Of a stretch of DNA of 64,000 bases, positions 6,392-50,749 are shown one piece after another. This DNA is from Nitrospina sp. (GTDB taxonomy: Bacteria > Nitrospinota > Nitrospinia > Nitrospinales > Nitrospinaceae). Numbering within the stretch: the stretch's first letter is position 1; each line of letters starts with the position of its first letter. Location of the stretch: NCBI GenBank assembly GCA_020430445.1, contig JAGQJZ010000002.1, positions 5,425 to 69,424 on the forward strand, read 5' to 3'. Both the position numbers and the translations under genes were made by a program. The notes under the pieces were generated by a model, which worked only from the letters and a program-made list of their open reading frames with translations, did not search any database and was not told where the DNA came from.

Positions 6392-7945
6392 TTAACAGAC
6401 GCCCTGTTGCGAGCGCAGCATGGCCTGATTGATTTTTTCTTCCAGTTGGTAACCGGTGAACGGTTTCAACAGGTACTGGCTGGCGCCGCACTGGATGATA
6501 TTCAGAATGACGTCCCGCCTGTCCTCTTCGGACACAACGATTATGGGCAAACTGACAAATTCCGGGTTTGCCCGAACGTTCTGGATCAATTCAAGGCCGG
6601 TCATGTAAGGCATGTACAGGTCCGTGATGACCAGATCAAAATTTCTTCCCTCCAGCTTTTTCAACGCCTGGGTTCCGCTTGCGGCCTCGACGATGTTTTC
6701 ATTGGCGAACCCCAGTTGCCGGGCGATCATCCTGTAAGCGGAGCGCATGGTTTGAATATCGTCCACAATGAGCAATTTGTCATTTTCGTGGGATTTCAGA
6801 AGCAGGGGGACCGTCTTTTTGAGCTTGGGAATGATCCTATCGTCGAAGACGTAATCCGATTCGCTTTGAGAGTCGATTTCCGGGTCGTTACAATCTTCAT
6901 GGTTGATTTGGGATATTTTTGGAAATTCCTTTTCAAATGCGCCAACCAGTTGGGGATCGAACATGGCCCCTGAACTTTCCTTGATTTTTGCCAGCGCTTC
7001 TTCGGCCGACAACCTGGGACGGTACGGACGTGGAGACGTCATGGCGTCGAACGCATCGCAGATGCAAACGATCCTGGCTTCCAGTTGAATGCTTTCTCCC
7101 CTGAGTCCTTCGGGATACCCTGTTCCGTCCCAGTTTTCGTGGTGTTCGAGAGCGATGGACTGCGCCATACGCATCAAGGGAGTGTCGAGGCCGGACAGCA
7201 ATTCCGCGCCAAGCACCGGATGGGTTCTGACAGCTTTCCACTCCACCGGCGTCAAGGGACCCGGCTTGTCAAAGATCGGCCGCGGCACCCCGATCTTTCC
7301 TATGTCATAGGTTGAACTCGCCAGCTTGATCTGGTTACAGCGTTCCGCACTGAGGCCAATATTCTTTGCGATCAAATAAGCAAAATGGCTGACGCGCAGA
7401 AAATTATCCCGGTTCTCCTTGAAGTGCACGCGGTTAGCCCGGCACAACCCCTGTAAAACATCGAGTTCGACATCGTGCGATTTCCGGGAGAGTTTCCGCG
7501 CCATGTATTGTTTCTTTTCCTTTTCATTGTTTGCACTTTCAACGGTCTTGCATGTAAATTTCAGGATATTCTTTACTCGAAGAATGACTTCAGAGTAGTC
7601 AAATGGTTTGCTGAGGAAATCGATTGCCCCTTCGTTCAGGGCCCGCAGGCGTATATGGGATTCGCTTTCCGCCGTGAGGACCATGATCGGAATCTGCCGG
7701 TCCTGTGGGTATTCCAGAATTTCCTTCATGATCTGAAACCCGTCCGGTTCAGGCATTCTCAGGTCGAGAAGGAGCAGATCGGGTTTGAACTGATCAAAAG
7801 CTTTGGTGAATTTTTTTGAATTGCGCTCGGCATGGACATTGACGAAACCGGCGTTTGCGAGCGTTTTTTTTAGCAGGAGGATGTTAGGGGCCTCATCATC
7901 CACAATCAAAATACGACTCGACAGGATTTTGGCTTCATTAACCAT
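6392..7945 (-). CDS. REC / HD-GYP-like (HD dyad reads YD) / REC protein
   Basis: N-terminal receiver (ILIVDDE...LLLLDLRMP...SKPFD). Central HD-GYP fold with HHENWDGTGYP, but TYDIGKIGVP where HD is expected. C-terminal second receiver (LLIVDD...VITDLYMP...LKPF). ATG at 7943-7945 with AGGAG 10 nt upstream; the track start at 7969 is a TTG. Confidence 0.85.
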   Translation of the reverse strand: MVNEAKILSSRILIVDDEAPNILLLKKTLANAGFVNVHAERNSKKFTKAFDQFKPDLLLLDLRMPEPDGFQIMKEILEYPQDRQIPIMVLTAESESHIRLRALNEGAIDFLSKPFDYSEVILRVKNILKFTCKTVESANNEKEKKQYMARKLSRKSHDVELDVLQGLCRANRVHFKENRDNFLRVSHFAYLIAKNIGLSAERCNQIKLASSTYDIGKIGVPRPIFDKPGPLTPVEWKAVRTHPVLGAELLSGLDTPLMRMAQSIALEHHENWDGTGYPEGLRGESIQLEARIVCICDAFDAMTSPRPYRPRLSAEEALAKIKESSGAMFDPQLVGAFEKEFPKISQINHEDCNDPEIDSQSESDYVFDDRIIPKLKKTVPLLLKSHENDKLLIVDDIQTMRSAYRMIARQLGFANENIVEAASGTQALKKLEGRNFDLVITDLYMPYMTGLELIQNVRANPEFVSLPIIVVSEEDRRDVILNIIQCGASQYLLKPFTGYQLEEKINQAMLRSQQGVC

Positions 7946-7999
7946 GGATCCGTAACTCCTGGAACCCAATGGGCATTGTCTGTTAAAGATTATCGGTTG

Positions 8000-9088
8000 T
8001 TAATTGAACACATTCACAACGGCGGATTGCTGGTGGTCCGGAAACCCTTCCATGATTTTTTCGATCTGGGAAAGGTTTTGTTTGAACAAGTCCACCAGTT
8101 GAGGGTCGAAAAGGATGCCGGATTTGTTTTCAATTTCCTCCACGGCCTCGTTGACCGGCCAGGCCTTTTTATAAGGACGCTCGCTGCACAACGCGTCGAA
8201 AACGTCCGCCAGCATGACGATCCGCCCTTCAATCGGAATTTCCTCTCCCTTCAATCCATTCGGGTAGCCCTTGCCGCAAAACTGTTCATGATGGGCTAAA
8301 GCGATTTGTTCCGCCATCTTCATGAGAGGCGAGGTTCCCGAGGCGAGGATTTCCGCCCCGATCTGGCTGTGGGTTTTCATGATTTTCCATTCCTCCGCAT
8401 CCAGCTTTCCGGGCTTGAGCAGAATGCGGTCCGGGATTCCTATTTTCCCCACATCGTGCATGGGACTCGCCTGCTGGATGAGCTTGCAGGTTTCATCCGG
8501 CAGGCAGGCGGCCCGGGCCAGAACTTCGCTGTACAGGCTCATGCGCATAACGTGCATGCCCGTTTCATTGTCCCGGTATTCCGCCGCCTTGCCCAGGCGA
8601 TTGATTGCCTCCAGCCGGGAGATTTCCAGGTCCCGGGTGCGCTCCGCCACTTTTTCGTCCAGAATTTCGTTTTGCCGCAGGGCCCGGTTGTAGAGCAACC
8701 GCATCGTCAGCATGTTTTTGATACGGGTGAGGACCTCGAGAAAGTTGAGCGGCTTCGAGAGAAAATCCATGGCCCCGGCTTTGAGCGCCCGCAGGCGGAT
8801 CTGATCGTCGGTCTGGGCCGTCAACACCAGAATGGGAGGGGCGTCGACTTCCGCGGACACCTGCTCCATGACGGCGAACCCATCGAGATGCGGCATGTTC
8901 AGGTCAAGCAGTATGATGTCCGGCCGGATCTCCTGGTACAGGGAAAGGGCGTTACGGGAGTCCTCCACGGAATAGACGGAAACATAACCATCCGACTGCA
9001 ACAGTTTCTCCAGCAGGAGGACATTGGCGTGTTCATCGTCCACGACCATGACCTTGGCTTTTTGTCGTTCTTCCTGGTCAATCAGCAT
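8000..9088 (-). CDS. response regulator with HD-GYP c-di-GMP phosphodiesterase domain (RpfG-like)
   Basis: 362 aa. Receiver (VMVVDDE...IILLDLNMP...SKPLN) followed by MHDVGKIGIP and HHEQFCGKGYP. Confidence 0.9.
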   Translation of the reverse strand: MLIDQEERQKAKVMVVDDEHANVLLLEKLLQSDGYVSVYSVEDSRNALSLYQEIRPDIILLDLNMPHLDGFAVMEQVSAEVDAPPILVLTAQTDDQIRLRALKAGAMDFLSKPLNFLEVLTRIKNMLTMRLLYNRALRQNEILDEKVAERTRDLEISRLEAINRLGKAAEYRDNETGMHVMRMSLYSEVLARAACLPDETCKLIQQASPMHDVGKIGIPDRILLKPGKLDAEEWKIMKTHSQIGAEILASGTSPLMKMAEQIALAHHEQFCGKGYPNGLKGEEIPIEGRIVMLADVFDALCSERPYKKAWPVNEAVEEIENKSGILFDPQLVDLFKQNLSQIEKIMEGFPDHQQSAVVNVFN

Positions 9089-9118: not shown

Positions 9119-11821
9119 TTATTCATCAAACTCCATATGAACGACCGCCATGAGTTTCTCCAGTTGGAGGGGTTTCCTCAGATAATGCTTGAAACCGGCG
9201 ATCATGGCCCGGTCCACGTCTTTTTCATTCGCATTGGCACTGATGGCAACCACCGGTATGGATTTGGTCTCGCGAAAGAGACGCAATTCCCGCAGCGCCG
9301 CAACGCCGTCCATTCCAGGAAGATTGATGTCCATTAAAATCAGATTGGGGTTGTGGGCTCTGGCCAGTTCGATGCCCAGGTTGGCTTCGTGCGCGATCAT
9401 CAGGCGGTATCCGTTTTCAGGCGTGAACACTTTCTTCATCAACCGTTGATTGGCCGGGTTGTCTTCCACACAGAGCACGGTAAAACGGGGTTTGCCATCC
9501 TCCACAAGCCCGTCGCCGGTATCCAGGACCCCGCTCACCTCGATTTCCGACGGCTGCACGGTCTGCATTTCTATGGTGAAACAACTGCCCTTTCCCGGCT
9601 CACTTTGCACGTAGATCTTCCCTTCCATCATTTCAATCATGCGGCGGGAAAGCGCCAGACCGATTCCCGTTCCCTCAATGCCCCGCTGGTCGGCTTCCAA
9701 CCGGTCGAAAGGCTTGAACAAACGCTTCTGAAGGTCAGGTGAAATACCCACCCCGGTATCCTTGATCGAGACGGTACCGGTCGCCCCCCCCCGCGCGCCA
9801 CAGGTGATCCAGACCTTGCCGTTCTCCCGGTTGTATTTGATCGCATTGGCAATAATATTCACCAGCGTCTGTTTCAACCGGACCCGGTCCGCGAAAAAGT
9901 AAATGGGTTCTTCATCAAATGAGGATTCATTGATGATCTCCACGGAGTTTTGCAACGCAACGGGAATCATGAATTCGCTGATCTCCTGGGCCAGGTCGCG
10001 GATATTGACCGCCTCCATGGAGAGAGTGATCTCCCCGGCTTCGATATCCGCAAGGTCCAGGATTTCATTGATCAGGAACAGCAGTCTTTCCCCGGCTTTG
10101 ATGATCTCTTCAATGTTTTCCCGATGGTCGTCGGAAAGGGGGGCTCTCGGATCGTTGTTCATCAATTGGGCGAATCCGAGGATAGCGTTCATCGGGGTGC
10201 GCAATTCATGGCTCATCCGGGACATGAATTCGGATTTCACCTGGCTGGCCTCTTCCGCGGCCTCCTTGGCGGCCAGAAGTTCCTTTTCGTATTTTTTCTG
10301 CTCGCTGATATCGCGGAGAATCGCGCAATAGTTTTGGGTCGTGTCCACTTTGATTTCGCTGACACTCAGTTCCAGAGGAATCAAACCGCCGTCCTTGTGC
10401 CGTCCCGTCACTTCGCTCCGGACGCCGAGGACGTTGGAAATACCGTTGCCGAGAAATCGCTGAATATCGGCGTGACCTGCGGAATAGTGGGGCTCCGGCA
10501 TCAGCCTGTTCACATTGTCTCCGACCACCTCTTTTGCCGCATAACCGAAAACCCGCTCGGCGGCGGGGTTGAAATTCTGGATAGCGCCACTACTGTCTAT
10601 TGCGATGATGGGGTCCGAGGATTGTTTGACGACAGCCTGGTAATAGTGGTCCGAAAGATCGAGTGCGGATTCGACTTTTCTCTTTTTCAGAATCAGGTAA
10701 AAGGAGACAAGCAAAAACAGCAGCAGCCCGACCACCAGACCTGTGAAAATATCCCGCAGCACCAGAAAGGGGCCGTACGCCTCGCTGTAATCCACCTCCT
10801 TGGTGACGCCGAAACCCAGACGAGGCAACCAGGCCCAGGCTCCGACCACGGGCACTCCACGATAATCGTTATAACCTTCCACATTGAGCGACCGTTCGCC
10901 GCGAATTGCGGAGTTCGCCATCAACGTCAAGGGCCATTGGTCCGGAGGGGTGGAAGGCCGGTACCCTCCGGTCAAATTCCCTCCCGGATCACGGACGCCG
11001 ACTCTCAATATGGAAGAACTCCGCATGTCGTCGGGGATCATTCCAATCGTTCGCAGGTGACCATGAAACCGGGTGTCGGAAATCATGACGCCATCCTGGT
11101 CGAACGCATAGGCCTCTCCCGTCTGGTGCGTCCGGGCTCCTTTGAATATTTTGGAAAATTCCACTTCCGGCCGCAGACGCAATCCCAGGACACCCCGGTT
11201 TGTTCCGTTTTCATCCTTTATGGGGAAAGCGTGGAACATGGTCGGGCGCCGCTCCACCATCACCCCCGTAGCATCCGGCAATGGGATTTCCGCCCAAAAG
11301 GGCAACGAGAGAACCACTTCTCCGGTCATGGCGCGGCGAAAGAAATCCGACGCCTTCATCAATTCCCGTCCGCCTATGGCCCCGTCCAGAAGCGCGCCGA
11401 CCTGGTACCCGGTTTCGTCAAACACAACAAAACCGACATAATCGACCTGCTTGCACAGAGCGCCCAGATGACTGCGCAGCCAAGCCAACTCTTCCAGGGC
11501 TATCAATTCTTCACGCGTTTTCCTGCCCCGGGACGATTTTTCGATCAACGCCAACAGTTTTTCCTGGGTCCGGCTGTCCCGCACCATTAAACGTCCTATA
11601 TTTTCCAGTTGGTCTTCCCAGACTCGAACGAGTTCCAGGGTACTGTCCAGGGAAATGGTTAAATTGTCGGAAATGGAACTTTTCAATCGACTTTTCACCA
11701 CCTGAAGCATCATCAGACTCCCACCGAGCACAAGGAGGAGCAGGAGAAGAAACAGGCCACCGATCCTGAACGAGCTCACACCGGCAAACAAACCCTCTGG
11801 GCTTCTGTGGTTTTGGGCCAT
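9119..11821 (-). CDS. hybrid sensor histidine kinase (double-Cache-like periplasmic domain, PAS, HisKA, HATPase, REC)
   Basis: Two TM segments flank a roughly 310-aa periplasmic region (GEAYAFDQDGVMISD, YNDYRGVPVVGAW). PAS follows, then H-box SHELRTPMNAILGF, G-boxes DTGVGI/GTGIGL, and a C-terminal receiver (LMDINLPGMDG). ATG at 11819-11821; the track start is an adjacent TTG. Confidence 0.9.
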   Translation of the reverse strand: MAQNHRSPEGLFAGVSSFRIGGLFLLLLLLVLGGSLMMLQVVKSRLKSSISDNLTISLDSTLELVRVWEDQLENIGRLMVRDSRTQEKLLALIEKSSRGRKTREELIALEELAWLRSHLGALCKQVDYVGFVVFDETGYQVGALLDGAIGGRELMKASDFFRRAMTGEVVLSLPFWAEIPLPDATGVMVERRPTMFHAFPIKDENGTNRGVLGLRLRPEVEFSKIFKGARTHQTGEAYAFDQDGVMISDTRFHGHLRTIGMIPDDMRSSSILRVGVRDPGGNLTGGYRPSTPPDQWPLTLMANSAIRGERSLNVEGYNDYRGVPVVGAWAWLPRLGFGVTKEVDYSEAYGPFLVLRDIFTGLVVGLLLFLLVSFYLILKKRKVESALDLSDHYYQAVVKQSSDPIIAIDSSGAIQNFNPAAERVFGYAAKEVVGDNVNRLMPEPHYSAGHADIQRFLGNGISNVLGVRSEVTGRHKDGGLIPLELSVSEIKVDTTQNYCAILRDISEQKKYEKELLAAKEAAEEASQVKSEFMSRMSHELRTPMNAILGFAQLMNNDPRAPLSDDHRENIEEIIKAGERLLFLINEILDLADIEAGEITLSMEAVNIRDLAQEISEFMIPVALQNSVEIINESSFDEEPIYFFADRVRLKQTLVNIIANAIKYNRENGKVWITCGARGGATGTVSIKDTGVGISPDLQKRLFKPFDRLEADQRGIEGTGIGLALSRRMIEMMEGKIYVQSEPGKGSCFTIEMQTVQPSEIEVSGVLDTGDGLVEDGKPRFTVLCVEDNPANQRLMKKVFTPENGYRLMIAHEANLGIELARAHNPNLILMDINLPGMDGVAALRELRLFRETKSIPVVAISANANEKDVDRAMIAGFKHYLRKPLQLEKLMAVVHMEFDE

Positions 11822-12059
11822 CAACTTGCGGCTCCTTCCTTATAAGACCTTTGAAAAAGTCAGAAATAAAACAAAAGCGAGACGCTTTCCTCCGTCAGGC
11901 TCGGGGCAGGCCCTGCCTTGCCGCCCTCTGAATGACAACAAAACGCTGCAGGGCCATTTCGAAGCAAACGCAAGCTATCTCGTCTCAAAGGATTTTCCAG
12001 GTTATGCAAGGTCTCTTTCCGCTGACCTCAGTCCGGCGAACCCCACTGTCCTACGAAGG

Positions 12060-14075
12060 TCAACGGGGCGCCAGATCTTTGAGAAGACGGGTCAATTCAT
12101 TAAAGTCAATCGGTTTTGTGATGTAGCCGTCAAACCCGGAATCGAGCGCTTTCTCGCGATCCGATTTCATCGCGTTGGCGCTCAGGCCGATGACCGGGAT
12201 AGTGCACAGGTTCCCATCCTGCTTCAACAGCTTGCAGGCCTCGTAGCCGTTCATCCCGGGAAGGTTGATATCCATGAGGATGATGTCCGGCAAAACTTCA
12301 GCCGCCCGCTTCAGTCCCGACTCGGCGGAAGCGGAGGTTTCCAGCCGGACCTGGGGAGCCGATTCAAAAAACTTCTGCAGCAGTTTGAGGTTGGCCGGGT
12401 TGTCTTCCACATAAAGAAGGGTGAGCGTTTCTTCCAGTTGCGGCAGTTTTTCATTATTGGGCTTCTGCGATTCCGCGGCCAGTTCTTCCGCCTCCATGAT
12501 CTCCTCCGCATTCGGGCACATCGGCAGAGAAATTTCAAAACAACTGCCCTTTCCCAAAGTGCTGGTGACGGTAATCGAACCGTTCATGGCGGCAATCAGT
12601 TTCTTGGTGATGGAGAGCCCGATCCCCGTCCCCTCGATTTCCGAACCCTCGGCCCCTCCACGGTCGAAAGGCTCGAAAATATTTTCCAGATTCTCCGGAC
12701 TGATCCCGATGCCGGTATCGGAAATTGAAAACAGGATGCGGTCATTCGAAGTGGAGTCCGGTTCGCACTTTAGCTGCACCATGCCCTTGGGCTTGTTGTA
12801 CTTGATGCCGTTGGACATCAGGTTCAACAAGACCTGTTTGGCCCGCACGTTGTCCCCCAGGATGTAGGCCTCCTGTAAACAGTTATTGACAATTTCGATC
12901 CGGATATCGAGTTCCTGCGCTGTGTTCTGGATCAGGTCCCCCACCTCGCGAACCAGGTTCTTCACGCAAAGGGGCTCAATGGACAATGTGGTTTTTCCGG
13001 AATCGATTTTGGCCAGGTCCAGGATGTCGTTGATCAGGGACAGCAGGTGCTCGCCGGCCTTCTGAATCTGGAAGAGGCTTTCTTCCTGCGATTCCGACAG
13101 GGAGTCCTGCGAACACCGCATGATGAGGGTTGAAAATCCAATGATCGCATTCAACGGAGTCCTCAATTCATGGCTCATGCTTGCAAGAAAATCCGATTTC
13201 GCCTGATTGGCGCGCAATGCCTCTTCCTTCGCCCGGATCAGTTTGGTCTCGTACACCTGGCGCTGCGTGATATCGCGGACACTGGAGGTGAACAACGGCT
13301 TCCCGTCGATGGTGATCTTGCTGATTCCAATCTCGGCGGGGAAAAAGCGGCCGTCCTTGCGCCGGCACAGGACCCGTTGGCCGGACACCAGGTTGCGCTT
13401 GATGGAATCGGAAGATTCACTCTGCACCACTTCCTGGTAAATATTTCCGGAATCTTCATCCAGCAGTTTTGCAATGGGTTTTTCGACCACCTCGGCGAAC
13501 GTGTATTGAAACATTTTCTCGGCCGCCAGGTTGAAGGAATGGATCGCACCCTGGGAATCCGTCGTGACCACCCCGTCCTGGATATTGTTCAAAATTGAAT
13601 GGATGCGGATTTCGCTTTCGCTGAGTTTGGCTTTCGCCACCTGTAGCTTGCGGATCAACCGCTCCTGCATCGCCTGATGCTCGTAGAGCTTCAGGAAAAT
13701 ATTCACCTTGCTGATCAGAATATCCGGATCCAGCGGCTTGAACAGGTAATCCACCGCCCCATTCTGGTACCCCTGAAACACGTACTTCTGGTCCTTGTTG
13801 ATGGCGGTGACGAAAATGATCGGAGTGTTGGCGGATTGTTCATACTCGCGGATGTAGGTGGCGGTCTCAAAACCGTCCATCCCCTCCATCTGGACATCCA
13901 GCAGGATGAGGGCAAACCGGTGTCTCAGAATAAGCGACAGGGCTTCATTTCCCGAATTGGCGGAAATCAGATGCGCGTTCACGCGCCGCAATATTTTCTC
14001 AAGCGCGAAAAGGTTTTCCTGCCGGTCATCCACCATCAGGATGTAGGGTTTAAGACTTTCCTGAGCCATTTCCAT
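12060..14075 (-). CDS. hybrid histidine kinase REC-PAS-HisKA-HATPase-REC
   Basis: N-terminal receiver (ILMVDD...ILLDVQMEGMDG...FKPLD), PAS, H-box SHELRTPLNAIIGF, DTGIGI/GTGIGL, C-terminal receiver (ILMDINLPGMNG). ATG at 14073-14075 has GGAG 7 nt upstream and overlaps the cheB 3' end by 26 nt. The track start at 14138 is a TTG. Confidence 0.88.
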   Translation of the reverse strand: MEMAQESLKPYILMVDDRQENLFALEKILRRVNAHLISANSGNEALSLILRHRFALILLDVQMEGMDGFETATYIREYEQSANTPIIFVTAINKDQKYVFQGYQNGAVDYLFKPLDPDILISKVNIFLKLYEHQAMQERLIRKLQVAKAKLSESEIRIHSILNNIQDGVVTTDSQGAIHSFNLAAEKMFQYTFAEVVEKPIAKLLDEDSGNIYQEVVQSESSDSIKRNLVSGQRVLCRRKDGRFFPAEIGISKITIDGKPLFTSSVRDITQRQVYETKLIRAKEEALRANQAKSDFLASMSHELRTPLNAIIGFSTLIMRCSQDSLSESQEESLFQIQKAGEHLLSLINDILDLAKIDSGKTTLSIEPLCVKNLVREVGDLIQNTAQELDIRIEIVNNCLQEAYILGDNVRAKQVLLNLMSNGIKYNKPKGMVQLKCEPDSTSNDRILFSISDTGIGISPENLENIFEPFDRGGAEGSEIEGTGIGLSITKKLIAAMNGSITVTSTLGKGSCFEISLPMCPNAEEIMEAEELAAESQKPNNEKLPQLEETLTLLYVEDNPANLKLLQKFFESAPQVRLETSASAESGLKRAAEVLPDIILMDINLPGMNGYEACKLLKQDGNLCTIPVIGLSANAMKSDREKALDSGFDGYITKPIDFNELTRLLKDLAPR

Positions 14076-14661
14076 GACAAGACTCCGAATACGTTGAAAC
14101 TTGCAGGAGCAAGGGAGCCAGAGACTCCGGTTGAACAATATGATTCGCCTGCACGGCCTGCAGGGCCGCGGCAGGCATGAACGAGGCCTCGGCGGTGGAC
14201 GGATCCTGCACGATGGTGAGGCCGCCCGCCTCCCCGATTCTTTTCATCCCCAGGGCGCCGTCCGAATTGGCGCCCGTCAACAACACGCCCACCAGAGCTC
14301 TCCCCAGAGCGGCGGAAGCACTTTCAAAAAAAACGTCAATGGACGGCCGGCTGTAATTCACCGGCGGATCGACCATCAAACCGAACGAAGCATCCCGCTC
14401 CAGAAGGAGGTGGTAGTTTCCCGGCGCCAGGTAAACATGGCCGGCAGCAGGAACGCATTTTTCTTCCGCTTCCTCCACCGTGAGCGCTGAGTTCGTATTC
14501 AACATTTCGGCGATCATTCCGTACGATTGTTTCCAAACATGCATCACAACGACCAAGGGTATCGGGAAACCCGCCGGCAGATCCTTCAGCAGGGCCCGGA
14601 CAATTCGGAAACTCCCTGCGGAGCCTCCGATGGCGATGAGTTCATAGAATGGCTTGTCCAT
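14050..14661 (-). CDS. cheB: CheB-type protein-glutamate methylesterase, catalytic domain only (no receiver)
   Basis: 203 aa. IAIGGSAGS (Ser), VVVMHVW (His) and LTGANSDG (Asp) match the CheB catalytic-domain layout. No REC domain precedes it. Confidence 0.85.
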   Translation of the reverse strand: MDKPFYELIAIGGSAGSFRIVRALLKDLPAGFPIPLVVVMHVWKQSYGMIAEMLNTNSALTVEEAEEKCVPAAGHVYLAPGNYHLLLERDASFGLMVDPPVNYSRPSIDVFFESASAALGRALVGVLLTGANSDGALGMKRIGEAGGLTIVQDPSTAEASFMPAAALQAVQANHIVQPESLAPLLLQVSTYSESCHGNGSGKS

Positions 14662-15490
14662 TGGTGTTCGAAATTTTCCGGAATATTTTTTCTTTCTTGA
14701 ACAACAGATCGAATTCGTCCGCCACGTCCGAAAACTTGACCGTCTCCTTCGTGCCGAGACATAAAAACCCCAGCGGACTCAGGCTGTCGCGAAAAAGGTG
14801 AAACACCCGGTTCTGGAGCATCTTGTCGAAATAGATGAGAACATTGCGGCAAATGATGACGTTCATCTCCCCAAACACCCCGTCCGAAGCCAGGTTATGG
14901 GTCGAGAACACAATGTTCTTTTTCAGTTGATCGCTGAGTTTGAAGAATCCGTACTTTTCCTTACAGTAGTCGCCCAGCCTGGATTTTGCCCCGGTAGCTT
15001 GATAATTGGCTTCGAAATGCTTGAAATCTTCCATCGAATAAATCCCTTTCTGCGCAATATCCAGCGAGAGGGCGTTGAAATCGGTTGCGTAGATGACACT
15101 GCGATCAAGAAACGACTCTTCCTGCAGGATGATGGCAAGGGAATACACTTCCTCCCCGGTGGAACAGCCAGCATGCCATATCTTGACGAACGGGTAAGTC
15201 TTCATCACCGGGATCACTTTTTCCCGGAACGTCAGGAAAAACTCCGGGTCGCGAAACATTTCCGTGACCCCCACCGACATGTTCAGCAGGAAACTGTTGA
15301 ACGCTTCCTTGTTGTTCAACAGTTCGGGGATCAGGTCGGAAAAACGCTCCACATTCAATTTTTCCCGGCAAATCCCGATCCTCCTTTTGACCGAAGCCCG
15401 GCTGTAATTCCGGAAATCGACCCCGTAGCGCCGGAAAATCCCCTCCAGAAGCAGTTCTATTTCCAGTTCCTCGACATCACCCGGGCTCAT
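14642..15490 (-). CDS. cheR: CheR-type protein-glutamate O-methyltransferase
   Basis: 282 aa. CheR N-helical region, then the SAM motif IWHAGCSTGEEVYSLAI. ATGA overlap with the upstream kinase stop and 20-nt overlap with cheB. Confidence 0.9.
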   Translation of the reverse strand: MSPGDVEELEIELLLEGIFRRYGVDFRNYSRASVKRRIGICREKLNVERFSDLIPELLNNKEAFNSFLLNMSVGVTEMFRDPEFFLTFREKVIPVMKTYPFVKIWHAGCSTGEEVYSLAIILQEESFLDRSVIYATDFNALSLDIAQKGIYSMEDFKHFEANYQATGAKSRLGDYCKEKYGFFKLSDQLKKNIVFSTHNLASDGVFGEMNVIICRNVLIYFDKMLQNRVFHLFRDSLSPLGFLCLGTKETVKFSDVADEFDLLFKKEKIFRKISNTNGQAIL

Positions 15491-18400
15491 TTCTCCTCCA
15501 GCAACAGAACCCGCATCAGGGTCAGCAACATGTCCACTTCAACCGGTTTCGGCAGATAATCGTTGGCGCCTTTCTCGAGGCATTTGGCGCGGTCCTCCGG
15601 CATGGCCTTGGCCGTCAGGGCGATGATCGGCAGTTCCTGGAACCGGCCCTGTTCCCGTATTTTCTCGATCGCTTCAAACCCGTCCATCACCGGCATCATG
15701 ATGTCCATCAGAACCAGGTCGATATCCGGTTGCTCCTCCAGTTTTTCCAGGGCCATCTGTCCGTTGTCGGCAATCACAACCTTCAATCCGTTTTTCTTTA
15801 GAATCTTGGAAAGAGCGAAGGTATTGCGCAGGTCGTCGTCGACGATCAGAATGTTCCGGTCCCGCAACGGGTTCTGCTCGTTGGTCTGGCGGTTGCGAAT
15901 TTCCTTTTGCTCGCCCGTCATCTTGGTCTCAACGCTGTGCAGAAACAGCGTGACCTCATCCAGCAACCGCTCCGGGGAGTTGGCTCCCTTCAGGACAATG
16001 CTCCGCGAATACTTCTGCAACTCCTGGTTTTCTCCCTGGCTGAGTTCCTTGCCGGTGTAAATGATGATGGGAGGCAGCACCAGGCCTTCCACCTTTTCCA
16101 GTTCCTGCAACAATTCAAAGCCGGTTATGTCCGGCAGGCGAAGGTCGAGAATGACGCAGTCGAAGCGCGAGTTTTTCAACGCCTGCATGGCCTGTTCACC
16201 GGTCGACACGGACCGCGTTTCCACGCATTCCGAATCGATCAACCGCTCGATGGCCCGCTGGTTCCCCGGATCGTCTTCGATGATGAGGACCTGCTTGACC
16301 TTGGCGTTAACGAGAGCCTCGATTTCAGACAGGGTTTCCTTCAAGGCTTCCTCGGTCGTCGGTTTCAACAAGAACCCCATCGCCCCCTTCTCAAGCAGGT
16401 CCACTTTTTCATCCCTTCCGGAGATCACATGGACCGGGATGTGGCGGGTCGACGGGTTGTATTTCAACTGTTCCAGCACATTGGCCCCGTCCAGGTCGGG
16501 AAGGCCCAGGTCCAGCAAAATCGCATCGGGTTTATAGGCCAGGGCCAATTGCAGCCCCCCTTTTCCCGTCCCGGCGGCCAGGGCCTTGAAACGGCGCTTG
16601 CGCGTGATCTTCGTCAAAACCCCGGCGAAGGTCTTGTCGTCCTCGATGACCAGAATCGTCCGGTCGCCGGGTTTGATTTCATTCCGGTCGTCGGGAATGA
16701 ATTCTTCAAGGAAATTGTTGTCCAGCTTGCCTTCAAAGGATTCCGCCATATCTCCCACGGCAGCGGTCTGCGCCTCCACATCCGGCCCGGATACGGCGGT
16801 GACTGCCTGCGGCTCTTCGGAGGTTTCCTGGTAGACCGAAGGGATGCAAAGCGCAAAATGGCTTCCCTTGCCCTTTTCACTTTCGAAATTCAAATCCCCC
16901 CCGATCAACACCGCCAGTTGCCTAGAAATGGTCAGGCCCAGTCCCGTGCCGCCGTATTTTCTGCTGGTGGACCCGTCCTCCTGCTTGAACGCTTCGAAAA
17001 TTCCACTCTGGTTTTCCCGGGAAATGCCCACACCGGTGTCTTCCACGGAAAAGACGATGTTTCCCGGGGCTCTGAGATCGGGTTTTTGAATGATCGACAG
17101 CGAAGCCGGATCGGACACGCGCAGCGTCACCGAACCCTTCTCGGTGAACTTGAATGCATTCGACAGAAGGTTTTTCAGGATCTGCTTGACCCGCTGGCAA
17201 TCCGTTTTGAGCGACCGGGGATGGCCGCCGTTGAGGTCGATGTTGAACTGGACTCCCTTTTCACGCGCCACCGGTTCAAACAGACCCCGGATCTCTCTCA
17301 GCAGGTCCTCGACATTCTCCTCATAAACACTGACCTGCATCTTCCCGGCCTCGATCTTGGAAAGGTCGAGGATATCGTTGATCAATTCCAGCAGGTCCCG
17401 GCCGCCCTGGTGGATCACCTTCAGCGACTCCACCTGATCCCGGTTGAGGTTTTCATTGTCGTTGTCCAGAAGGTCCTTCGACAGGATGAGCAGGCTGTTG
17501 AGCGGGGTCCTCAATTCATGCGACATGTTGGCCAGAAATTCGGACTTGTACTTGCTGGCGGTTTCCAGATCCCGGGCCTTGTCCTCAAGCATCCGGTTGA
17601 ACACTTCAATCTGCTTGCCTTTTTCCTGAACCTCACGGTTTTTCTCTTCCAGAAAAGAGGTTTTCTCTTCCAGTTCCTCGTTTTGCGCCTGCAATTCCTC
17701 GCTCTGGTTTTTCAATTCTTCTTCATTTTGTTTCAGAATCTCGGCCTTCTCCTCCAGTTCCTCGTTCGTCACCCGCAACTCTTCCGACTGGACCTGGATC
17801 TGCTGATTCAGCTCCTGCGCTTCCTTCAACAGGGTTTCCGTCTTGATACGCCCCTCAATGCTTTCGACCACCACGCCCAGAGTGGTCGAAATTTCTTCCA
17901 TCAGGTTCCGGCACTGTGCGGAAAACGGTTCGAATGATCCGATTTCGATCACCCCTTTGACCTGGTTTTCAAATATCATCGGAGTCACCAGGATATTCCG
18001 CGGGCTGGCCTCGCCCAGTCCAGACCGGACCTGCACATAGTCTTCCGGCACACTGGTGATCTCGATCGATTTCTGTTCCAGCGCGCATTGGCCCACCAGC
18101 CCTTCCCCGACATTGTAGGTGTCGGACAAATGCTTCCTCCGGGTATGGGCGTAGGATCCCAGCAAAGACAAAGACTGGTTGCCGTTGTTTGACGCCCCGT
18201 AAAAAAGGCCCAACTGGCCGCCCAGTTTCGGCGTCACATCCTGGATCAGGGTGCGGGCAAACGCTTCCAGGCTGTTCAACCCCTGCAGTTTTCCCGTGAT
18301 TGCGGACAGGTTGGATTTGACCCAGTTGGATTCCGAGATTTTGCGGGTTTCTTCCTTCAGGCCCTCTGTCAGCGATTTGAGATTGGACTGCATTTTGCGC

Positions 18401-19536
18401 ATGGCGTCGGCCAGTTGCTCGATCTCCTTCATCCCTTTCAATTCGACCCGGAAATCAAAATCGCCTTCCGAAACGGCGTTGGCCGTTTCAATGGTTTTGG
18501 AGATGGCCTGCTGAATCGAACGGGTGATGGCGATGGCGACGACAAACCCCAGAATCATGCCAAACGCGAGCAACCCCCATTCCAGCCTGACCAGACTTTT
18601 GACCTGTTGAATAACCCCCAGAAAACTGGACTCGGTCGCTTTTTCATTCTTTTCGGAAAGCTTTCGGGCAAGCTGTGTCAGGCTGTCGGACAACGGCGCG
18701 GCCCTGGTTTTCAGCCAGTGATTGGCCAGGTTCCAGACTTCCCCCCGGCGGATTTGAAACATCTTTTCGACCAGAGGAAAAAACTCCGCCCGCGTCTTTT
18801 CGATTTCCGCAAACGCCTCCTGTTGCTCCGGAGTCATGAGGCGCGTTTTCGTTTTCAGGGTTTCATAAGCCGATGAATTCTTGGCCCAGAAAAGGTCGAA
18901 GTTGTTGCGGAATGTTTCCTCTCCGTTCATCAGGTACGCCCGCAAACTGGCCAGGCTCATGCCCAGTCCCCCGCGGAAATTAGCCAGCTGGACCAGCAAC
19001 TCTTTCCGCTCCGCCGTGGCTTTCAGGCTCGTTTCAATGTCGATCATCTGAGAAATCCTGTCATTCAGTTTTCCCGTACGGGGGATCGCTTCCTTGAACA
19101 GGATTTTCTTGGCGGGCTCGTTCTCCAGAGTGTGCGCCATGTTTTCGATCTCATCCTGGACCTTTCTCAATTCAACCAACTGGCTCCGAATGTTGTCCAG
19201 GGCGGCCCCCATCGACGGGTCCAGCCAGTTGCGGGACAAGGCCCCCAGGTTTTTCATGCTGGATGCAATATCAACATTCCAGATTTTTTCCCGGAGGGGT
19301 TTCAGATTTTCCTCGCCCAGCAACAGGTAGCCCCGGAGAATGGCCAGGGACGCGTTCACGCCGTTCAACAACCGGCCCGATTCCACCACCGAAGGAAAAC
19401 GGACTTCCACGTTTTTCTTGTTGGTTTCCTGGATCGAATTGACCTCGAAGATGGCCATCAGAACCGTCAACAGCAAGGTCAAAACCAGGAGGGCATACCC
19501 CAGGCCGATGCGTTTTGGAATGGAATTGAGCAACAT
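15487..19536 (-). CDS. large hybrid histidine kinase (duplicated helical sensor, HAMP, GAF, EEL-heptad coiled coil, HisKA, HATPase, three REC domains)
   Basis: TM1 (IGLGYALLVLTLLLTVLMAIF), periplasmic helical region, TM2, HAMP, GAF (GEGLVGQCALEQK), coiled coil, H-box SHELRTPLNSLL (His codon 17518-17520), DTGVGI/GTGLGL, then three receiver domains. ATG at 19534-19536; the track start at 19620 is a TTG with no usable RBS spacing. Confidence 0.9.
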   Translation of the reverse strand: MLLNSIPKRIGLGYALLVLTLLLTVLMAIFEVNSIQETNKKNVEVRFPSVVESGRLLNGVNASLAILRGYLLLGEENLKPLREKIWNVDIASSMKNLGALSRNWLDPSMGAALDNIRSQLVELRKVQDEIENMAHTLENEPAKKILFKEAIPRTGKLNDRISQMIDIETSLKATAERKELLVQLANFRGGLGMSLASLRAYLMNGEETFRNNFDLFWAKNSSAYETLKTKTRLMTPEQQEAFAEIEKTRAEFFPLVEKMFQIRRGEVWNLANHWLKTRAAPLSDSLTQLARKLSEKNEKATESSFLGVIQQVKSLVRLEWGLLAFGMILGFVVAIAITRSIQQAISKTIETANAVSEGDFDFRVELKGMKEIEQLADAMRKMQSNLKSLTEGLKEETRKISESNWVKSNLSAITGKLQGLNSLEAFARTLIQDVTPKLGGQLGLFYGASNNGNQSLSLLGSYAHTRRKHLSDTYNVGEGLVGQCALEQKSIEITSVPEDYVQVRSGLGEASPRNILVTPMIFENQVKGVIEIGSFEPFSAQCRNLMEEISTTLGVVVESIEGRIKTETLLKEAQELNQQIQVQSEELRVTNEELEEKAEILKQNEEELKNQSEELQAQNEELEEKTSFLEEKNREVQEKGKQIEVFNRMLEDKARDLETASKYKSEFLANMSHELRTPLNSLLILSKDLLDNDNENLNRDQVESLKVIHQGGRDLLELINDILDLSKIEAGKMQVSVYEENVEDLLREIRGLFEPVAREKGVQFNIDLNGGHPRSLKTDCQRVKQILKNLLSNAFKFTEKGSVTLRVSDPASLSIIQKPDLRAPGNIVFSVEDTGVGISRENQSGIFEAFKQEDGSTSRKYGGTGLGLTISRQLAVLIGGDLNFESEKGKGSHFALCIPSVYQETSEEPQAVTAVSGPDVEAQTAAVGDMAESFEGKLDNNFLEEFIPDDRNEIKPGDRTILVIEDDKTFAGVLTKITRKRRFKALAAGTGKGGLQLALAYKPDAILLDLGLPDLDGANVLEQLKYNPSTRHIPVHVISGRDEKVDLLEKGAMGFLLKPTTEEALKETLSEIEALVNAKVKQVLIIEDDPGNQRAIERLIDSECVETRSVSTGEQAMQALKNSRFDCVILDLRLPDITGFELLQELEKVEGLVLPPIIIYTGKELSQGENQELQKYSRSIVLKGANSPERLLDEVTLFLHSVETKMTGEQKEIRNRQTNEQNPLRDRNILIVDDDLRNTFALSKILKKNGLKVVIADNGQMALEKLEEQPDIDLVLMDIMMPVMDGFEAIEKIREQGRFQELPIIALTAKAMPEDRAKCLEKGANDYLPKPVEVDMLLTLMRVLLLEEK

Positions 19537-19846
19537 GGTCCCGCCCCTTTTACTTTTATTGAAAAGCCGAATATATGGCCAAAAAAATTCCTCCAAGCTC
19601 TTGAAGTTAAGGGAAGCCAACGCCTTAAAAATGTCAATCTAATTTTAAAAACAACCGGCGATTGCATCACCGCATGGCAGGAAAACCCGGTTCAACGGAA
19701 AGCCACACACCGTATGCCCCCTATTTACAAACAAAAAGCCGGAACGGCTGTCTCAGATGGCGGGATAAAAAGTGCAGGGACACATGAATGCCGACCCTAC
19801 CAGCAAGCATGTATTGAAACCATTCTCCAGTGGCCGCGCACGGCAC

Positions 19847-19876
19847 AAAAAAAGCCGTCCCGAAAACGGGACGGCT
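19847..19876 (-). terminator. rho-independent terminator after the CHASE2 cyclase gene
   Basis: Minus strand reads AGCCGTCCCG-uuuu-CGGGACGGCU followed by UUUUUUU. 10-bp stem, 64 nt after the cyclase stop. Confidence 0.7.
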
Positions 19877-19939
19877 TTGATATGGATTGCCGGTCACCAC
19901 TCGCCGGAAACCGGGCGGACGCCCGGCCGGCGCATGCCG

Positions 19940-22210: not shown

Positions 22211-22230
22211 TCACACCCAGCAGGGAGCTT

Positions 22231-22262
22231 AAAAAAACGCCGACGGCTTGCGGGAGGCGGCG
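22231..22262 (-). terminator. weak hairpin plus U7 run between TpsA and the cyclase gene (possible attenuator)
   Basis: Minus strand reads CGCCG-N15-CGGCG followed by UUUUUUU, ending about 20 nt before the cyclase GTG. The stem is only 5 bp. Confidence 0.3.
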
Positions 22263-22395
22263 GCAGTGTCCGCCCACCCGGGTTTTCCCATCAGCCATCC
22301 CGGGCCGGAGATTCCGTTCCCTGCCGACAATGGCAAAGCGGATGAGGGGCTCAGCCGCCCGCCATGGAGGTCAACCACCCGAACTCAACCCCGTG

Positions 22396-25359: not shown

Positions 25360-25409
25360 GGCCTCTTCTCTGTATTCCCCTCAATAGTTCCCCGTCACTG
25401 CTCCGGACG

Positions 25410-26279: not shown

Positions 26280-26284
26280 CCTGG

Positions 26285-34036: not shown

Positions 34037-34100
34037 TTAACGGTTAATGACAAGATTGTGAAAGAAACGCGCCTTGCCCTTTCGGGCAGGGAGCGCCGGA

Positions 34101-36788: not shown

Positions 36789-36917
36789 TTATAGTGCTCC
36801 TTATCAGATGTTGACTTGCAGAAAAAGGGCGGGGGCTTCTTCACCTCGCTCTGTTTTCCGTGCTTTTAAGACACATCAAAACTTCCCGGATGGTTGCGCG
36901 TGAAAATATCAAGGCAG

Positions 36918-36946
36918 AAAAAAGGCGGGGACACACTCACCGCGCC
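36918..36946 (-). terminator. candidate terminator after the FTR1 permease gene
   Basis: Minus strand reads GGCGCGG-N9-CCCCGCC (one mismatch) followed by UUUUUU, 65 nt after the FTR1 stop. Confidence 0.4.
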
Positions 36947-47139: not shown

Positions 47140-47146
47140 TATGAAT

Positions 47147-50745: not shown

Positions 50746-50749
50746 TGAA

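What the first reader, a model, noticed from the sequence alone, without database searches (positions are those of the whole stretch)
14050..17790. cheR and receiver-less cheB with no MCP, CheA or CheW: candidate methylation of a histidine kinase coiled coil
- cheR (14642-15490) and a catalytic-domain-only cheB (14050-14661) are wedged between two hybrid kinases by ATGA, 20-nt and 26-nt overlaps.
- No methyl-accepting chemotaxis domain, CheA or CheW is visible anywhere in the 64 kb.
- The upstream kinase carries a coiled coil between its GAF domain and H-box (about 17615-17790): QSEELRVTNEELEEKAEILKQNEEELKNQSEELQAQNEELEEKTSFLEEK.
- From memory, very similar EELQxxNEEL runs occur in the CheB-CheR fusion kinase family, and I am not aware that their methylation substrate is defined.
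- The Glu-Glu/Gln pairs in heptad register resemble MCP methylation and deamidation sites.
- Inference: the kinase itself is the CheR/CheB substrate, giving adaptation by methylation without a chemoreceptor array.
Basis: partly seen in the sequence, partly recalled or inferred. Interest (0 to 1): 0.65.

Follow-up and report, generated by a model that had tools for sequence, protein, structure and literature searches.

The report
Kinase coiled coil as CheR/CheB target
A methyltransferase/esterase pair normally used to tune chemotaxis receptors sits in a widely conserved operon with a sensor kinase whose rigid acidic coiled coil is the likely, but untested, methylation target, suggesting methylation-based adaptation without chemoreceptors.

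Summary
On the minus strand lie a 4HB_MCP/CHASE3-like–HAMP–GAF–coil–HisKA–HATPase–3×REC kinase (HK1), cheR, a receiver-less cheB and a REC–PAS–kinase (HK2). They are joined by 4-, 20- and 26-nt overlaps. No MCP, CheA or CheW is found in the 64 kb.

It is not a one-off. In 62 of 67 CheR-anchored genomic loci from more than 10 phyla, a GAF–coil–kinase lies on the same strand upstream of CheR. These include Pseudomonas putida, where the published cfcABCDE cluster has the same layout.

The coil is a strict heptad coiled coil in phase with the phospho-His:
- 257 of 258 motifs are in phase.
- Lengths differ only by multiples of 7.
- Exposed Glu-Glu pairs and Asn/Gln at the core positions are nearly invariant.

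Two findings link the motif to CheR/CheB. In an independent kinase-anchored sample, EE-rich coils track with an adjacent CheR (median 3 versus 0 EE heptads), with exceptions. The same NEEL heptads also occur in cis in CheB–CheR fusion proteins.

It remains inference: I found no paper that shows it, and three key papers were not held. I rate it a new variant of a known kind, directly testable in P. putida.

The parts
15487..19536 (-). HK1: hybrid sensor kinase (4HB_MCP_1 + CHASE3-like sensor, HAMP, GAF, coil, HisKA, HATPase, 3 REC). The longest ORF runs to TTG 19620; the probable ATG is at 19536. Residue numbers in this report count from 19620.
18637..19521 (-). HK1 periplasmic sensor: 4HB_MCP_1 (28.4 bits, cutoff 27) followed by a CHASE3-like region (23.8 bits, below the cutoff of 28), flanked by two hydrophobic segments.
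   Evidence: sequence
18376..18528 (-). HAMP domain of HK1 (residues 365-415)
17863..18273 (-). GAF domain of HK1 (residues 450-586)
17551..17829 (-). Heptad coiled coil linking GAF to the H-box (residues 598-690). Leu falls every 7 residues from 608 to 685, in phase with His701.
17641..17808 (-). EE-heptad core of the coil (residues 605-660). Candidate methyl-accepting Glu pairs: E613/E614 (nt 17779-17784), E620/E621 (17758-17763), E634/E635 (17716-17721), E641/E642 (17695-17700), E648/E649 (17674-17679).
   Evidence: the methyl-acceptor role is inferred
17344..17547 (-). HisKA/DHp domain; the phospho-acceptor His701 codon is at 17518-17520
16840..17202 (-). HATPase_c catalytic domain of HK1
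15505..16668 (-). Three receiver domains of HK1. All three carry the acidic pocket Asp, Thr/Ser and Lys residues when read by eye.
   Evidence: sequence
14642..15490 (-). cheR: CheR_N plus the SAM-dependent methyltransferase domain. Its start overlaps the HK1 stop (ATGA).
14050..14661 (-). cheB: methylesterase catalytic domain only (203 aa), no receiver, Ser/His/Asp triad conserved. Overlaps cheR by 20 nt.
12060..14075 (-). HK2: REC-PAS-HisKA-HATPase-REC kinase. Its ATG at 14075 overlaps cheB by 26 nt. It is the conserved fourth gene of the module.
9119..11824 (-). HK3: dCache-PAS-HisKA-HATPase-REC hybrid kinase. This is context and is not conserved in the other loci.
6392..9088 (-). Two REC-HD-GYP genes (8000-9088 and 6392-7969): candidate phosphorelay outputs acting as c-di-GMP phosphodiesterases.
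   Evidence: the output role is inferred
19851..19878 (-). Strong terminator-like hairpin (12 pairs, 8 G-C, T-run) after the upstream CHASE2-cyclase gene. It marks HK1 as the first gene of its transcription unit.

Best explanation
The four genes HK1-cheR-cheB-HK2 form one conserved signalling module. In this module the methyl-accepting element is not a chemoreceptor but the coiled coil that joins HK1's GAF domain to its phospho-accepting helix.

**Shown**
- The gene order, the domain content and the intact catalytic residues of CheR and CheB.
- The conservation of the module.
- The strict heptad geometry of the coil and its conserved, solvent-exposed Glu-Glu pairs.

**Inferred**
- CheR methylates one Glu of the heptad-spaced E-E pairs (b/c positions, next to the Leu at d and the Asn/Gln at a).
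- The receiver-less CheB removes the methyl groups, and may deamidate Gln where a Gln is encoded.
- Neutralising these charges changes the stability or register of an intrinsically marginal coiled coil (polar Asn/Gln core, 27% Glu).
- That change resets the autokinase/phosphatase balance of HK1.
- Because CheB has no receiver, any feedback would come from the conformation-dependent accessibility of the sites, not from phosphorylation of CheB.
- HK1 would then signal to the N-terminal receiver of HK2, and on to response regulators. In this window these are REC-HD-GYP c-di-GMP phosphodiesterases; in P. putida the regulator is CfcR.
For: 1. **Synteny.** A CheR-anchored scan of 185,579 species genomes returned 80 loci from Proteobacteria, Bacteroidota, Cyanobacteria, Paenibacillus, Gemmatimonadota, Deinococcus, Acidobacteriota, Planctomycetota and others.
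   - In 62 of 67 loci with at least 4.5 kb upstream, a GAF-HisKA kinase lies on the same strand upstream of CheR.
   - CheB is receiver-less in the module.
   - MCPsignal occurs in 2 of 80 loci and CheW in none.
2. **Coil conservation across 65 orthologues**: L615, L622, L650 and L657 are invariant; N619 64/65; N647 63/63; E614 62/65; E642 62/63; E621 52/65; position 649 is E36/Q22.
3. **Geometry**.
   - 257 of 258 [NQ][EQ][EQ]L motifs are in the same heptad phase relative to the phospho-His.
   - The distance from a conserved Gln anchor to the His takes only the values 64, 71, 78, 85, 92, 99, 106 and 120.
4. **Kinase-anchored test.** This metagenome sample was chosen without reference to CheR.
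   - 15 kinases with an adjacent CheR have a median of 3 EE-Leu heptads. 24 without have a median of 0 (Mann-Whitney p = 4e-5).
   - After crude de-replication, p = 0.03 (n = 14 versus 10).
   - For three or more EE heptads the counts are 11/15 versus 3/24 (Fisher p = 3e-4).
   - None of 19 control kinases with the same H-box but no coil has a CheR.
5. **Same motif in cis.** CheB-CheR fusion proteins in L124 and L140 carry 5-6 in-phase NEEL heptads. Short fragments with the motif are named 'CheB/CheR fusion protein' by JGI.
6. **No rival site in HK2.** HK2 linkers have no conserved acidic motif.
7. **Coil specificity.** The coil matched only 154 of 1.84 billion representative proteins. 115 of the best 150 are GAF-HisKA kinases, most of the rest are fragments carrying GAF, HisKA or the coil, and none is an MCP.
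8. **Enzymes look active**.
9. **Published context.** In P. putida the cluster is cfcABCDE. cfcB/cfcC encode CheR/CheB, and a role in chemotaxis is reported as ruled out (PMC4951495).
Against: - No biochemical evidence exists here or in any paper I could read.
- The sites do not match the MCP consensus of small residues flanking the E/Q pair.
- The window CheR is no closer to the fusion-protein CheR (31% identity, about 123 bits) than to B. subtilis chemotaxis CheR (116 bits). No dedicated 'coil-specific' CheR clade was demonstrated.
- There are exceptions in both directions.
  - L102 (6 EE heptads), L084 and L139 have no CheR within the sequence available.
  - L022 and L034 keep CheR-CheB-HK2 without HK1, and the Nostoc loci L046 and L064 have an orphan CheR.
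- About half of the HK1-like kinases in the metagenome sample have no adjacent CheR.
- The EE/CheR correlation is confounded by relatedness: many CheR-less sequences are one clade.
- Loci with and without CheB do not differ in Gln content of the pairs.
- Several CheR-positive loci lack CheB.
Confidence: 0.55

Rival explanations
1. CheR and CheB of this cluster act on ordinary chemoreceptors encoded elsewhere in the genome. Their position next to the kinases reflects co-regulation only.
For: - Both enzymes have all the canonical catalytic features.
- The best structural match is a genuine chemotaxis CheR (B. subtilis, 5FTW).
- 64 kb cannot exclude MCPs elsewhere.
- L029 and L056 do have MCP genes nearby.
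Against: - The gene order is conserved with overlapping reading frames across more than 10 phyla, with MCP in 2 of 80 and CheW in 0 of 80 loci.
- CheB is uniformly receiver-less, unlike pathway CheBs.
- NCBIfam scores are far below the CheR and CheB cutoffs (91 versus 435 and 159 versus 342).
- A chemotaxis role for P. putida CheR/CheB of this cluster is reported as ruled out (PMC4951495 citing Garcia-Fontana 2013).
Confidence: 0.1
2. CheR/CheB modify a different part of the module (HK2, a receiver domain, HAMP, or another protein in the complex). The coil motif is conserved only as a mechanical signalling helix.
For: - HK2 is as conserved a neighbour as HK1. L022 and L034 keep CheR-CheB-HK2 without HK1.
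- L038 fuses CheB to HK2.
- A related coil persists in CheR-less kinases.
- The heptad phase-locking to the His is what a purely mechanical linker would also show.
Against: - HK2 linkers and H-boxes are heterogeneous and carry no conserved Glu-rich motif.
- Exposed b/c Glu pairs are as conserved as the core Leu, which packing alone does not require.
- EE pairs are depleted where CheR is absent.
- The same motif travels with CheB-CheR in fusion proteins that have a different domain context.
Confidence: 0.2
3. The acidic, polar-core coil is itself a sensor of ionic strength or charge. CheR/CheB are an accessory or vestigial pair with little effect on it.
For: - The coil is 27% Glu with Asn/Gln at the core 'a' positions, so it is electrostatically frustrated.
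- The P. putida orthologue is reported to respond to salts. I saw only the title of Tagua et al. 2022, in the reference list of PMC12125118.
- The two-kinase module exists without CheR/CheB.
Against: - This does not explain why intact CheR/CheB with conserved active sites are retained in translationally coupled position across phyla.
- It is compatible with methylation tuning the same electrostatics, so it is more a complement than a rival.
Confidence: 0.1

Closest known systems
Chemoreceptor (MCP) adaptation by CheR/CheB
   Same: - The same two enzyme families, with intact active sites.
- Candidate sites are Glu-Glu or Glu-Gln pairs spaced 7 residues apart along one face of a long helix in a signalling coiled coil.
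- The receptor N-terminus (4HB_MCP_1/CHASE3-like sensor plus HAMP) is of the MCP type.
   Different: - No MCP signalling domain, CheA or CheW is present.
- The helix leads straight into a DHp/His kinase.
- The sites lack the small-residue flanks of the MCP consensus.
- There is no C-terminal pentapeptide (0 of 66).
- CheB has no receiver domain, so there is no phospho-feedback.
cfcABCDE of Pseudomonas putida KT2440 (CfcA = PP_3761, CfcB/CfcC = CheR/CheB), BmsA of P. alkylphenolica, and genes 3082-3079 of P. brassicacearum
   Same: - The same gene order: hybrid CHASE3/GAF kinase, CheR, CheB, hybrid kinase (PMC4951495; PMC8175716).
- A P. putida locus (L048) was recovered in the same CheR family with the same coil motif.
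   Different: - The sensor here is a double four-helix-bundle type.
- The window adds a dCache kinase and two REC-HD-GYP genes, rather than the unlinked GGDEF/EAL regulator CfcR.
- The papers I could read describe genetics of the kinase only and give no role for CheR/CheB. Lee 2016, Tagua 2022 and Garcia-Fontana 2013 were not held.
CheB/CheR fusion proteins (KEGG K13924 type: CheB-CheR-coil-PAS-...)
   Same: They carry the same in-phase NEEL heptad coil, in 5-6 copies (L124, L140, fragments P0121-P0146).
   Different: - The enzymes and the coil are on one polypeptide.
- The coil leads into a PAS domain rather than a DHp.
- CheR identity to the window protein is only 31%.
Alternative-function chemosensory systems (Wsp, Frz)
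   Same: CheR/CheB are used to tune a non-motility output such as c-di-GMP.
   Different: Those systems keep an MCP, CheW and a CheA-type kinase. This module has none in the locus.
Signalling-helix / coiled-coil linkers of histidine kinases
   Same: A continuous heptad helix joins the sensor domain to the DHp. Length varies only in whole heptads.
   Different: The surface motif is highly conserved and acidic, the core has Asn/Gln, and the coil is genetically coupled to modification enzymes.

Membership tests
Canonical chemosensory pathway (MCP-CheW-CheA-CheR-CheB) | An MCP signalling domain gene in the cluster | tested here: not met
   There is no MCPsignal in 45 of 46 window ORFs and no phmmer hit with the Tsr signalling domain. 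It occurs in 2 of 80 related loci.
Canonical chemosensory pathway (MCP-CheW-CheA-CheR-CheB) | CheA (Hpt, dimerisation and CheW-like domains) and CheW present | tested here: not met
   No such Pfam domains are found in the window (same calls). CheW occurs in 0 of 80 loci.
Canonical chemosensory pathway (MCP-CheW-CheA-CheR-CheB) | CheB with an N-terminal receiver domain | tested here: not met
   The protein is 203 aa with CheB_methylest only. Module CheBs in the related loci are also receiver-less.
Canonical chemosensory pathway (MCP-CheW-CheA-CheR-CheB) | CheR and CheB reach the NCBIfam curated cutoffs | tested here: not met
   CheR scores 90.8 bits against a cutoff of 435. CheB scores 159 bits against a cutoff of 342.
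CheR / CheB enzyme families | Pfam domains above the gathering score and catalytic residues conserved | tested here: met
   CheR_N scores 38.5 and CheR 136.9 bits; CheB_methylest scores 173.9 bits. The Ser/His/Asp triad aligns to 1CHD, and the SAM motif, FRD and IYFD align to 5FTW and 1BC5.
cfcABCD / BmsA-type cluster of Pseudomonas | Gene order: CHASE3/GAF hybrid kinase, CheR, CheB, REC-kinase | tested here: met
   The window order is shown. The published description is in PMC4951495 and PMC8175716. P. putida locus L048 has the same order and coil.
cfcABCD / BmsA-type cluster of Pseudomonas | Output through a REC-GGDEF-EAL regulator (CfcR) | tested here: not met
   The window has REC-HD-GYP genes downstream and a receiver-less GAF-GGDEF gene. 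CfcR is unlinked in P. putida, so its absence from 64 kb is weak evidence.
Methyl-accepting helices of MCPs | Consensus [ASTG][ASTG]-x-x-[EQ][EQ]-x-x-[ASTG][ASTG] (recalled from Alexander and Zhulin 2007) | tested here: not met
   The coil heptads read Q-E-E-L-R-x-x and N-E-E-L-E-E-Q/K, with no small-residue flanks.
Methyl-accepting helices of MCPs | E/Q pairs at 7-residue spacing on one face of a coiled-coil helix | tested here: met
   The pairs lie at residues 613/614, 620/621, 634/635, 641/642 and 648/649. 257 of 258 motifs are in phase across 118 kinases.
Methyl-accepting helices of MCPs | Actual CheR-dependent methylation and CheB-dependent demethylation | not testable with these tools
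   This needs biochemistry or mass spectrometry.
CheB/CheR fusion proteins (K13924 type) | CheB and CheR domains on one polypeptide with a downstream NEEL coil | tested here: not met
   In the window they are separate genes. The shared coil motif is confirmed in L124 and L140.
Histidine-kinase signalling coiled coil | [quoted passage not shown] | tested here: met
   Hydrophobic residues occupy H-16-7k in 116-118 of 118 sequences for k = 0-7. All anchor distances are congruent to 1 mod 7.

The most novel reading that the evidence does not exclude
Hybrid histidine kinases of this family are a second, phylogenetically widespread class of methyl-accepting proteins. A dedicated CheR and a receiver-less CheB reversibly methylate heptad-spaced Glu pairs in the GAF-to-DHp coiled coil. 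This would give two-component phosphorelays, many of them controlling c-di-GMP, a chemotaxis-like memory and gain control with no chemoreceptor, CheA or CheW. The same chemistry would operate in cis in CheB-CheR fusion proteins.
Probability: 0.4. Interest if true: 0.8.

Novelty: new variant of a known kind. Interest (0 to 1): 0.62.

Why it matters
**Why it would matter if true**
- Reversible glutamate methylation is the textbook memory device of bacterial chemotaxis and is thought of as a property of chemoreceptor arrays.
- If the substrate here is a histidine kinase's own signalling helix, the same device has been attached to ordinary two-component systems in thousands of genomes across many phyla. 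That would give them adaptation or adjustable gain.
- It would give a function to the orphan CheR3/CheB3 (CfcB/CfcC) of Pseudomonas putida and to the large, uncharacterised CheB/CheR-fusion family.
- It would offer a simple soluble system (a CheR, a CheB and a coiled coil) for studying how charge neutralisation on a helix controls kinase output.

**Why it is testable now**
- Candidate residues are named.
- A genetically tractable orthologue with a known c-di-GMP/biofilm read-out exists.

Tried and rejected
**Literature**
None found a paper showing CheR-dependent methylation of a histidine kinase.
- Two searches were wasted on word-start or substring matches ('teacher', 'Chebr...').
- Garcia-Fontana 2013, Tagua 2022 and Wuichet & Zhulin 2010 were not held. 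I did not try to fetch Lee 2016.
- I could not establish from the literature whether any genome with this module lacks MCPs; the Bacteroidetes search was uninformative.

**Searches that gave limited information**
- A synthetic NEELQS probe returned only short fragments, apparently because candidates were limited by length. It was useful only for the source names, and it led to the fragmented fusion gene in L081.
- The coil-only phmmer search against 1.84 billion representatives recovered almost only HK1-type kinases. It showed specificity but could not test neighbourhoods. I therefore ran a kinase-anchored metagenome scan.

**Tests with no signal or rejected ideas**
- The Gln content of the E/Q pairs does not depend on whether CheB is present (p = 0.95).
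- The window CheR is not especially close to the fusion-protein CheRs (31% identity).
- HK1 orthologues carry no C-terminal CheR-docking pentapeptide (0 of 66).
- HK2 shows no conserved acidic linker motif, so it was rejected as the target.
- Pfam has no family for the coil, only generic coiled-coil noise.
- NCBIfam gives no named equivalog for any of the four proteins.

**Not run**
- Structure prediction was not run. A monomeric model of a dimeric coil would not discriminate between the hypotheses, and chimeric CheR-coil inputs are not accepted.

Full report
**1. What is in the window**

- **HK1** (ORF 15487-19620, probable ATG at 19536).
  - The sensor region matches 4HB_MCP_1 (28.4 bits) and, more weakly, CHASE3 (23.8 bits, below the cutoff).
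  - It continues with HAMP, GAF, HisKA, HATPase_c and three receiver domains.
- **cheR** (14642-15490) has CheR_N and the CheR methyltransferase domain.
- **cheB** (14050-14661, 203 aa) has only the methylesterase domain.
- **HK2** (12060-14075) is REC-PAS-HisKA-HATPase-REC.
- **Overlaps.** The junctions are ATGA, 20 nt and 26 nt, which suggests translational coupling.
- **Operon start.** A strong terminator-like hairpin at 19878-19851 follows the upstream CHASE2-cyclase gene, so HK1 opens its own transcription unit.
- **Active sites.**
  - The CheB Ser/His/Asp triad aligns with Salmonella CheB (1CHD).
  - CheR keeps the SAM-binding and catalytic motifs, and its best structural match is B. subtilis CheR (5FTW).
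- **No chemotaxis core genes.** No MCPsignal, CheW or CheA-type domain was found.
  - Pfam scans covered 45 of the 46 main ORFs.
  - A six-frame phmmer search found nothing either.

**2. The coil**

- The quoted sequence is exact. It spans HK1 ORF residues 611-660, nt 17641-17790.
- The whole stretch from residue 598 to 690 is a heptad repeat.
  - Leu (or Ile/Val) sits at every seventh position from 608 to 685.
  - Asn, Gln or small residues sit four residues after each Leu (the other core position).
  - Glu-Glu sits in the two residues before each Leu.
- Five EEL triplets lie in one phase. In 200,000 composition-preserving shuffles, five or more EEL occurred 32 times, and never all in one phase.
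- Pfam has no family for this segment.

**3. The module is not peculiar to this genome**

- The closest named CheR is from Candidatus Nitrohelix vancouverensis (69% identity). The same subfamily reaches 53-60% identity in very distant phyla.
- A scan of one genome per species with a CheR alignment returned 80 loci.
- Local domain mapping shows a recurrent order: [sensor-GAF-coil-HisKA-HATPase-2 or 3 REC], CheR, receiver-less CheB, [REC-HisKA-HATPase].
  - In 62 of 67 loci with enough upstream sequence, a GAF-HisKA kinase lies on the same strand upstream of CheR.
  - MCP genes appear in 2 of the 80 loci and CheW in none.
- One of the loci is Pseudomonas putida (L048). The literature describes its layout as the cfcABCDE cluster.
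  - CfcA is a CHASE3/GAF hybrid kinase needed to activate the diguanylate cyclase CfcR.
  - The same context is noted for BmsA of P. alkylphenolica and gene 3082 of P. brassicacearum (PMC8175716).
- So the gene cluster is known genetically in Pseudomonas. None of the papers I could read gives CheR/CheB a function in it.

**4. Conservation and geometry of the coil**

- In 65 orthologues the consensus is ...LLxE(T/S)Qxx(S/A)EELQxQQEEL(R/K)xxNEELEEQxxxL(K/R)xS(E/Q)xxLxxQQ(E/A)EL(E/Q)QTNE(E/Q)LEE(K/Q)....
- The exposed positions are as conserved as the core.

| Position | Conservation |
|---|---|
| E614 | 62/65 |
| E642 | 62/63 |
| E621 | 52/65 |
| N619 | 64/65 |
| N647 | 63/63 |
| 649 | Glu 36 / Gln 22 |

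- Across 118 kinases from two independent samples, 257 of 258 [NQ][EQ][EQ]L motifs share one heptad phase relative to the phospho-His.
- The distance from a conserved Gln anchor to the His takes only the values 64, 71, 78, 85, 92, 99, 106 and 120.
- The coil is therefore a rigid signalling helix. Its angular relation to the catalytic His is maintained, and its solvent-exposed acidic pairs are under selection.
- Heptad-spaced E/Q pairs on one helical face are also how MCP methylation sites are arranged (established knowledge). However, the small-residue flanks of the MCP consensus are absent here.

**5.

*Specificity of the coil.* phmmer of the 65-residue coil against 1.84 billion representative proteins gave only 154 hits.
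- 115 of the best 150 are GAF-HisKA kinases.
- Most of the rest are fragments carrying GAF, HisKA or the coil.
- None is an MCP.

*Kinase-anchored sample.* A scan of metagenome contigs, blind to CheR, gave 60 HK1-like kinases and 19 controls with the same H-box but no coil.
- None of the controls has a CheR.
- Among HK1-like kinases with informative flanks, 15 have an adjacent stand-alone CheR and 24 do not.
- In the 24, HK1 is usually followed directly by HK2, so the two-kinase core exists without the methylation genes.

| Measure | CheR adjacent | No CheR | Test |
|---|---|---|---|
| Median EE-Leu heptads | 3 | 0 | Mann-Whitney p = 4e-5 |
| Three or more EE heptads | 11 of 15 | 3 of 24 | Fisher p = 3e-4 |
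| After crude de-replication | n = 14 | n = 10 | p = 0.03 |

- In the CheR-less group the motif has decayed to, for example, QQKELQQTNEQLAQK.
- The association is real but not absolute.
  - L102, L084 and L139 are EE-rich without a visible CheR.
  - Some CheR-less relatives keep one or two EE pairs.
  - Relatedness inflates the statistics.

**6. The motif in cis**

Two full-length CheB-CheR fusion proteins, found by chance beside HK1-like kinases (L124, 882 aa; L140, 1781 aa), carry NEELxxxNEEL... in 5-6 consecutive in-phase heptads about 200 residues after the CheR domain.
- Short ORFs with the motif are named 'CheB/CheR fusion protein' by JGI. One sits inside a fragmented REC-CheB-CheR-...-HisKA-HATPase-REC gene.
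- So the motif accompanies CheB/CheR in two unrelated architectures.

**7. Mechanism**

- The best-supported reading is that the HK1 coil is the methyl-accepting element.
  - CheR would neutralise, and the receiver-less CheB would restore, the charges of the exposed Glu pairs.
  - This would shift the stability or register of a marginal, polar-core coiled coil, and with it the kinase output of HK1.
- HK1 would then signal to the receiver of HK2 and on to response regulators. Here these are two REC-HD-GYP proteins.
- The genes, domains, conservation, geometry and co-variation are shown. The modification and its effect are inferred.
- Because CheB has no receiver, any adaptation would have to rely on conformation-dependent site accessibility.

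**8. Rivals**

| Rival | Confidence | Main point against or about it |
|---|---|---|
| MCPs encoded elsewhere are the substrate | about 0.1 | Disfavoured by the synteny and the P. putida report |
| Another part of the module is the substrate | about 0.2 | HK2 linkers show no conserved motif |
| The coil is a purely electrostatic sensor and the enzymes are accessory | about 0.1 | Largely compatible with the main model |

**9. Negative and inconclusive results**

- Gln content of the pairs does not depend on CheB presence.
- The window CheR is not closer to the fusion CheRs than to chemotaxis CheRs.
- There is no C-terminal docking pentapeptide.
- There is no NCBIfam equivalog.

**10. Verdict**

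- The cluster type is already known in Pseudomonas. The proposed substrate, and the breadth and regularity of the motif, appear not to be described in the literature I could search. Three relevant papers (Garcia-Fontana 2013, Lee 2016, Tagua 2022) were not read, so prior publication cannot be excluded.
- I rate it a new variant of a known kind, of clear interest to the signal-transduction field and directly testable.

Noticed in passing
window 19940-28030 (- strand): Upstream cluster: a ShlB/FhaC-type TpsB transporter (26285-28030), a FecR-domain protein (25410-26279), a TPS-domain exoprotein (22396-25359) and a CHASE2-adenylate/guanylate cyclase with TPR (19940-22210). It looks like a two-partner secretion system joined to a CHASE2 cyclase, and a terminator-like hairpin separates it from HK1.
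   Followed up: partly
window 3560-4963, 6392-9088 (- strand): Two REC-HD-GYP genes and a GAF-GGDEF gene lie just downstream of the kinases. This suggests the module feeds c-di-GMP turnover, as its P. putida counterpart does through CfcR.
   Followed up: partly
window 44776-58079 (- strand): A pilus/type II secretion-like cluster: a secretin, T2SSF, a T2SSE ATPase with an MshEN domain (49111-50745) and two genes with N-terminal methylation motifs. MshEN domains are known c-di-GMP receptors (from memory), so this could be a downstream target of the same second messenger.
   Followed up: no
window 32969-38249: A multihaem cytochrome c (34606-36357), a cytochrome b561-like protein (36231-36788), an FTR1 iron permease (37011-38249) and a ferredoxin-NAD(P) reductase-like protein (32969-34036). 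This may be an iron uptake or redox cluster.
   Followed up: no
L099, L101, L104, L113, L117, L122, L131, L136 (metagenome loci): This is a sister group of HK1-like kinases (GAF-coil-HK-3 REC) followed directly by the REC-kinase, with no CheR/CheB. Their coil is one repeat shorter and has mostly lost the Glu-Glu pairs.
   Followed up: yes
L102:7637-12391: This kinase has six EE heptads next to its H-box (after a PAS domain) but no CheR or CheB in about 12 kb of flanks. It is the clearest exception to the CheR/EE association.
   Followed up: partly
L124:3720-6365 (-) and L140:2394-7736 (+): Full-length CheB-CheR fusion proteins with 5-6 in-phase NEEL heptads lie next to HK1-like kinases whose own coil is degenerate. 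The methyl-accepting coil may have moved to the fusion protein in these loci.
   Followed up: partly
L038 (Sericytochromatia MAG), 814-aa ORF downstream of CheR: The CheB catalytic domain is fused to the N-terminus of HK2 (CheB-REC-HisKA-HATPase), which is the reverse order of canonical REC-CheB. This hints at a physical CheB-HK2 association.
   Followed up: no
L008, L015, L019, L020, L070, L088 (Paenibacillus/Bacillus type); L127, L128, L138, L141: These loci have HK1-CheR-HK2 but no CheB gene. That would mean methylation without a dedicated esterase in the locus.
   Followed up: partly
L041, L044, L058, L067, L072, L075, L079, L080 (Bacteroidota): This variant gene order places the REC-kinase upstream of HK1 and adds a single-domain receiver gene between HK1 and CheR. 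The first motif copy reads HSELENLNxELE.
   Followed up: no
L022, L034, L046, L064: CheR of the same subfamily occurs here without an HK1-type kinase. Beggiatoa and a planctomycete keep CheB and HK2 only, and two Nostoc loci have an orphan CheR.
   Followed up: partly
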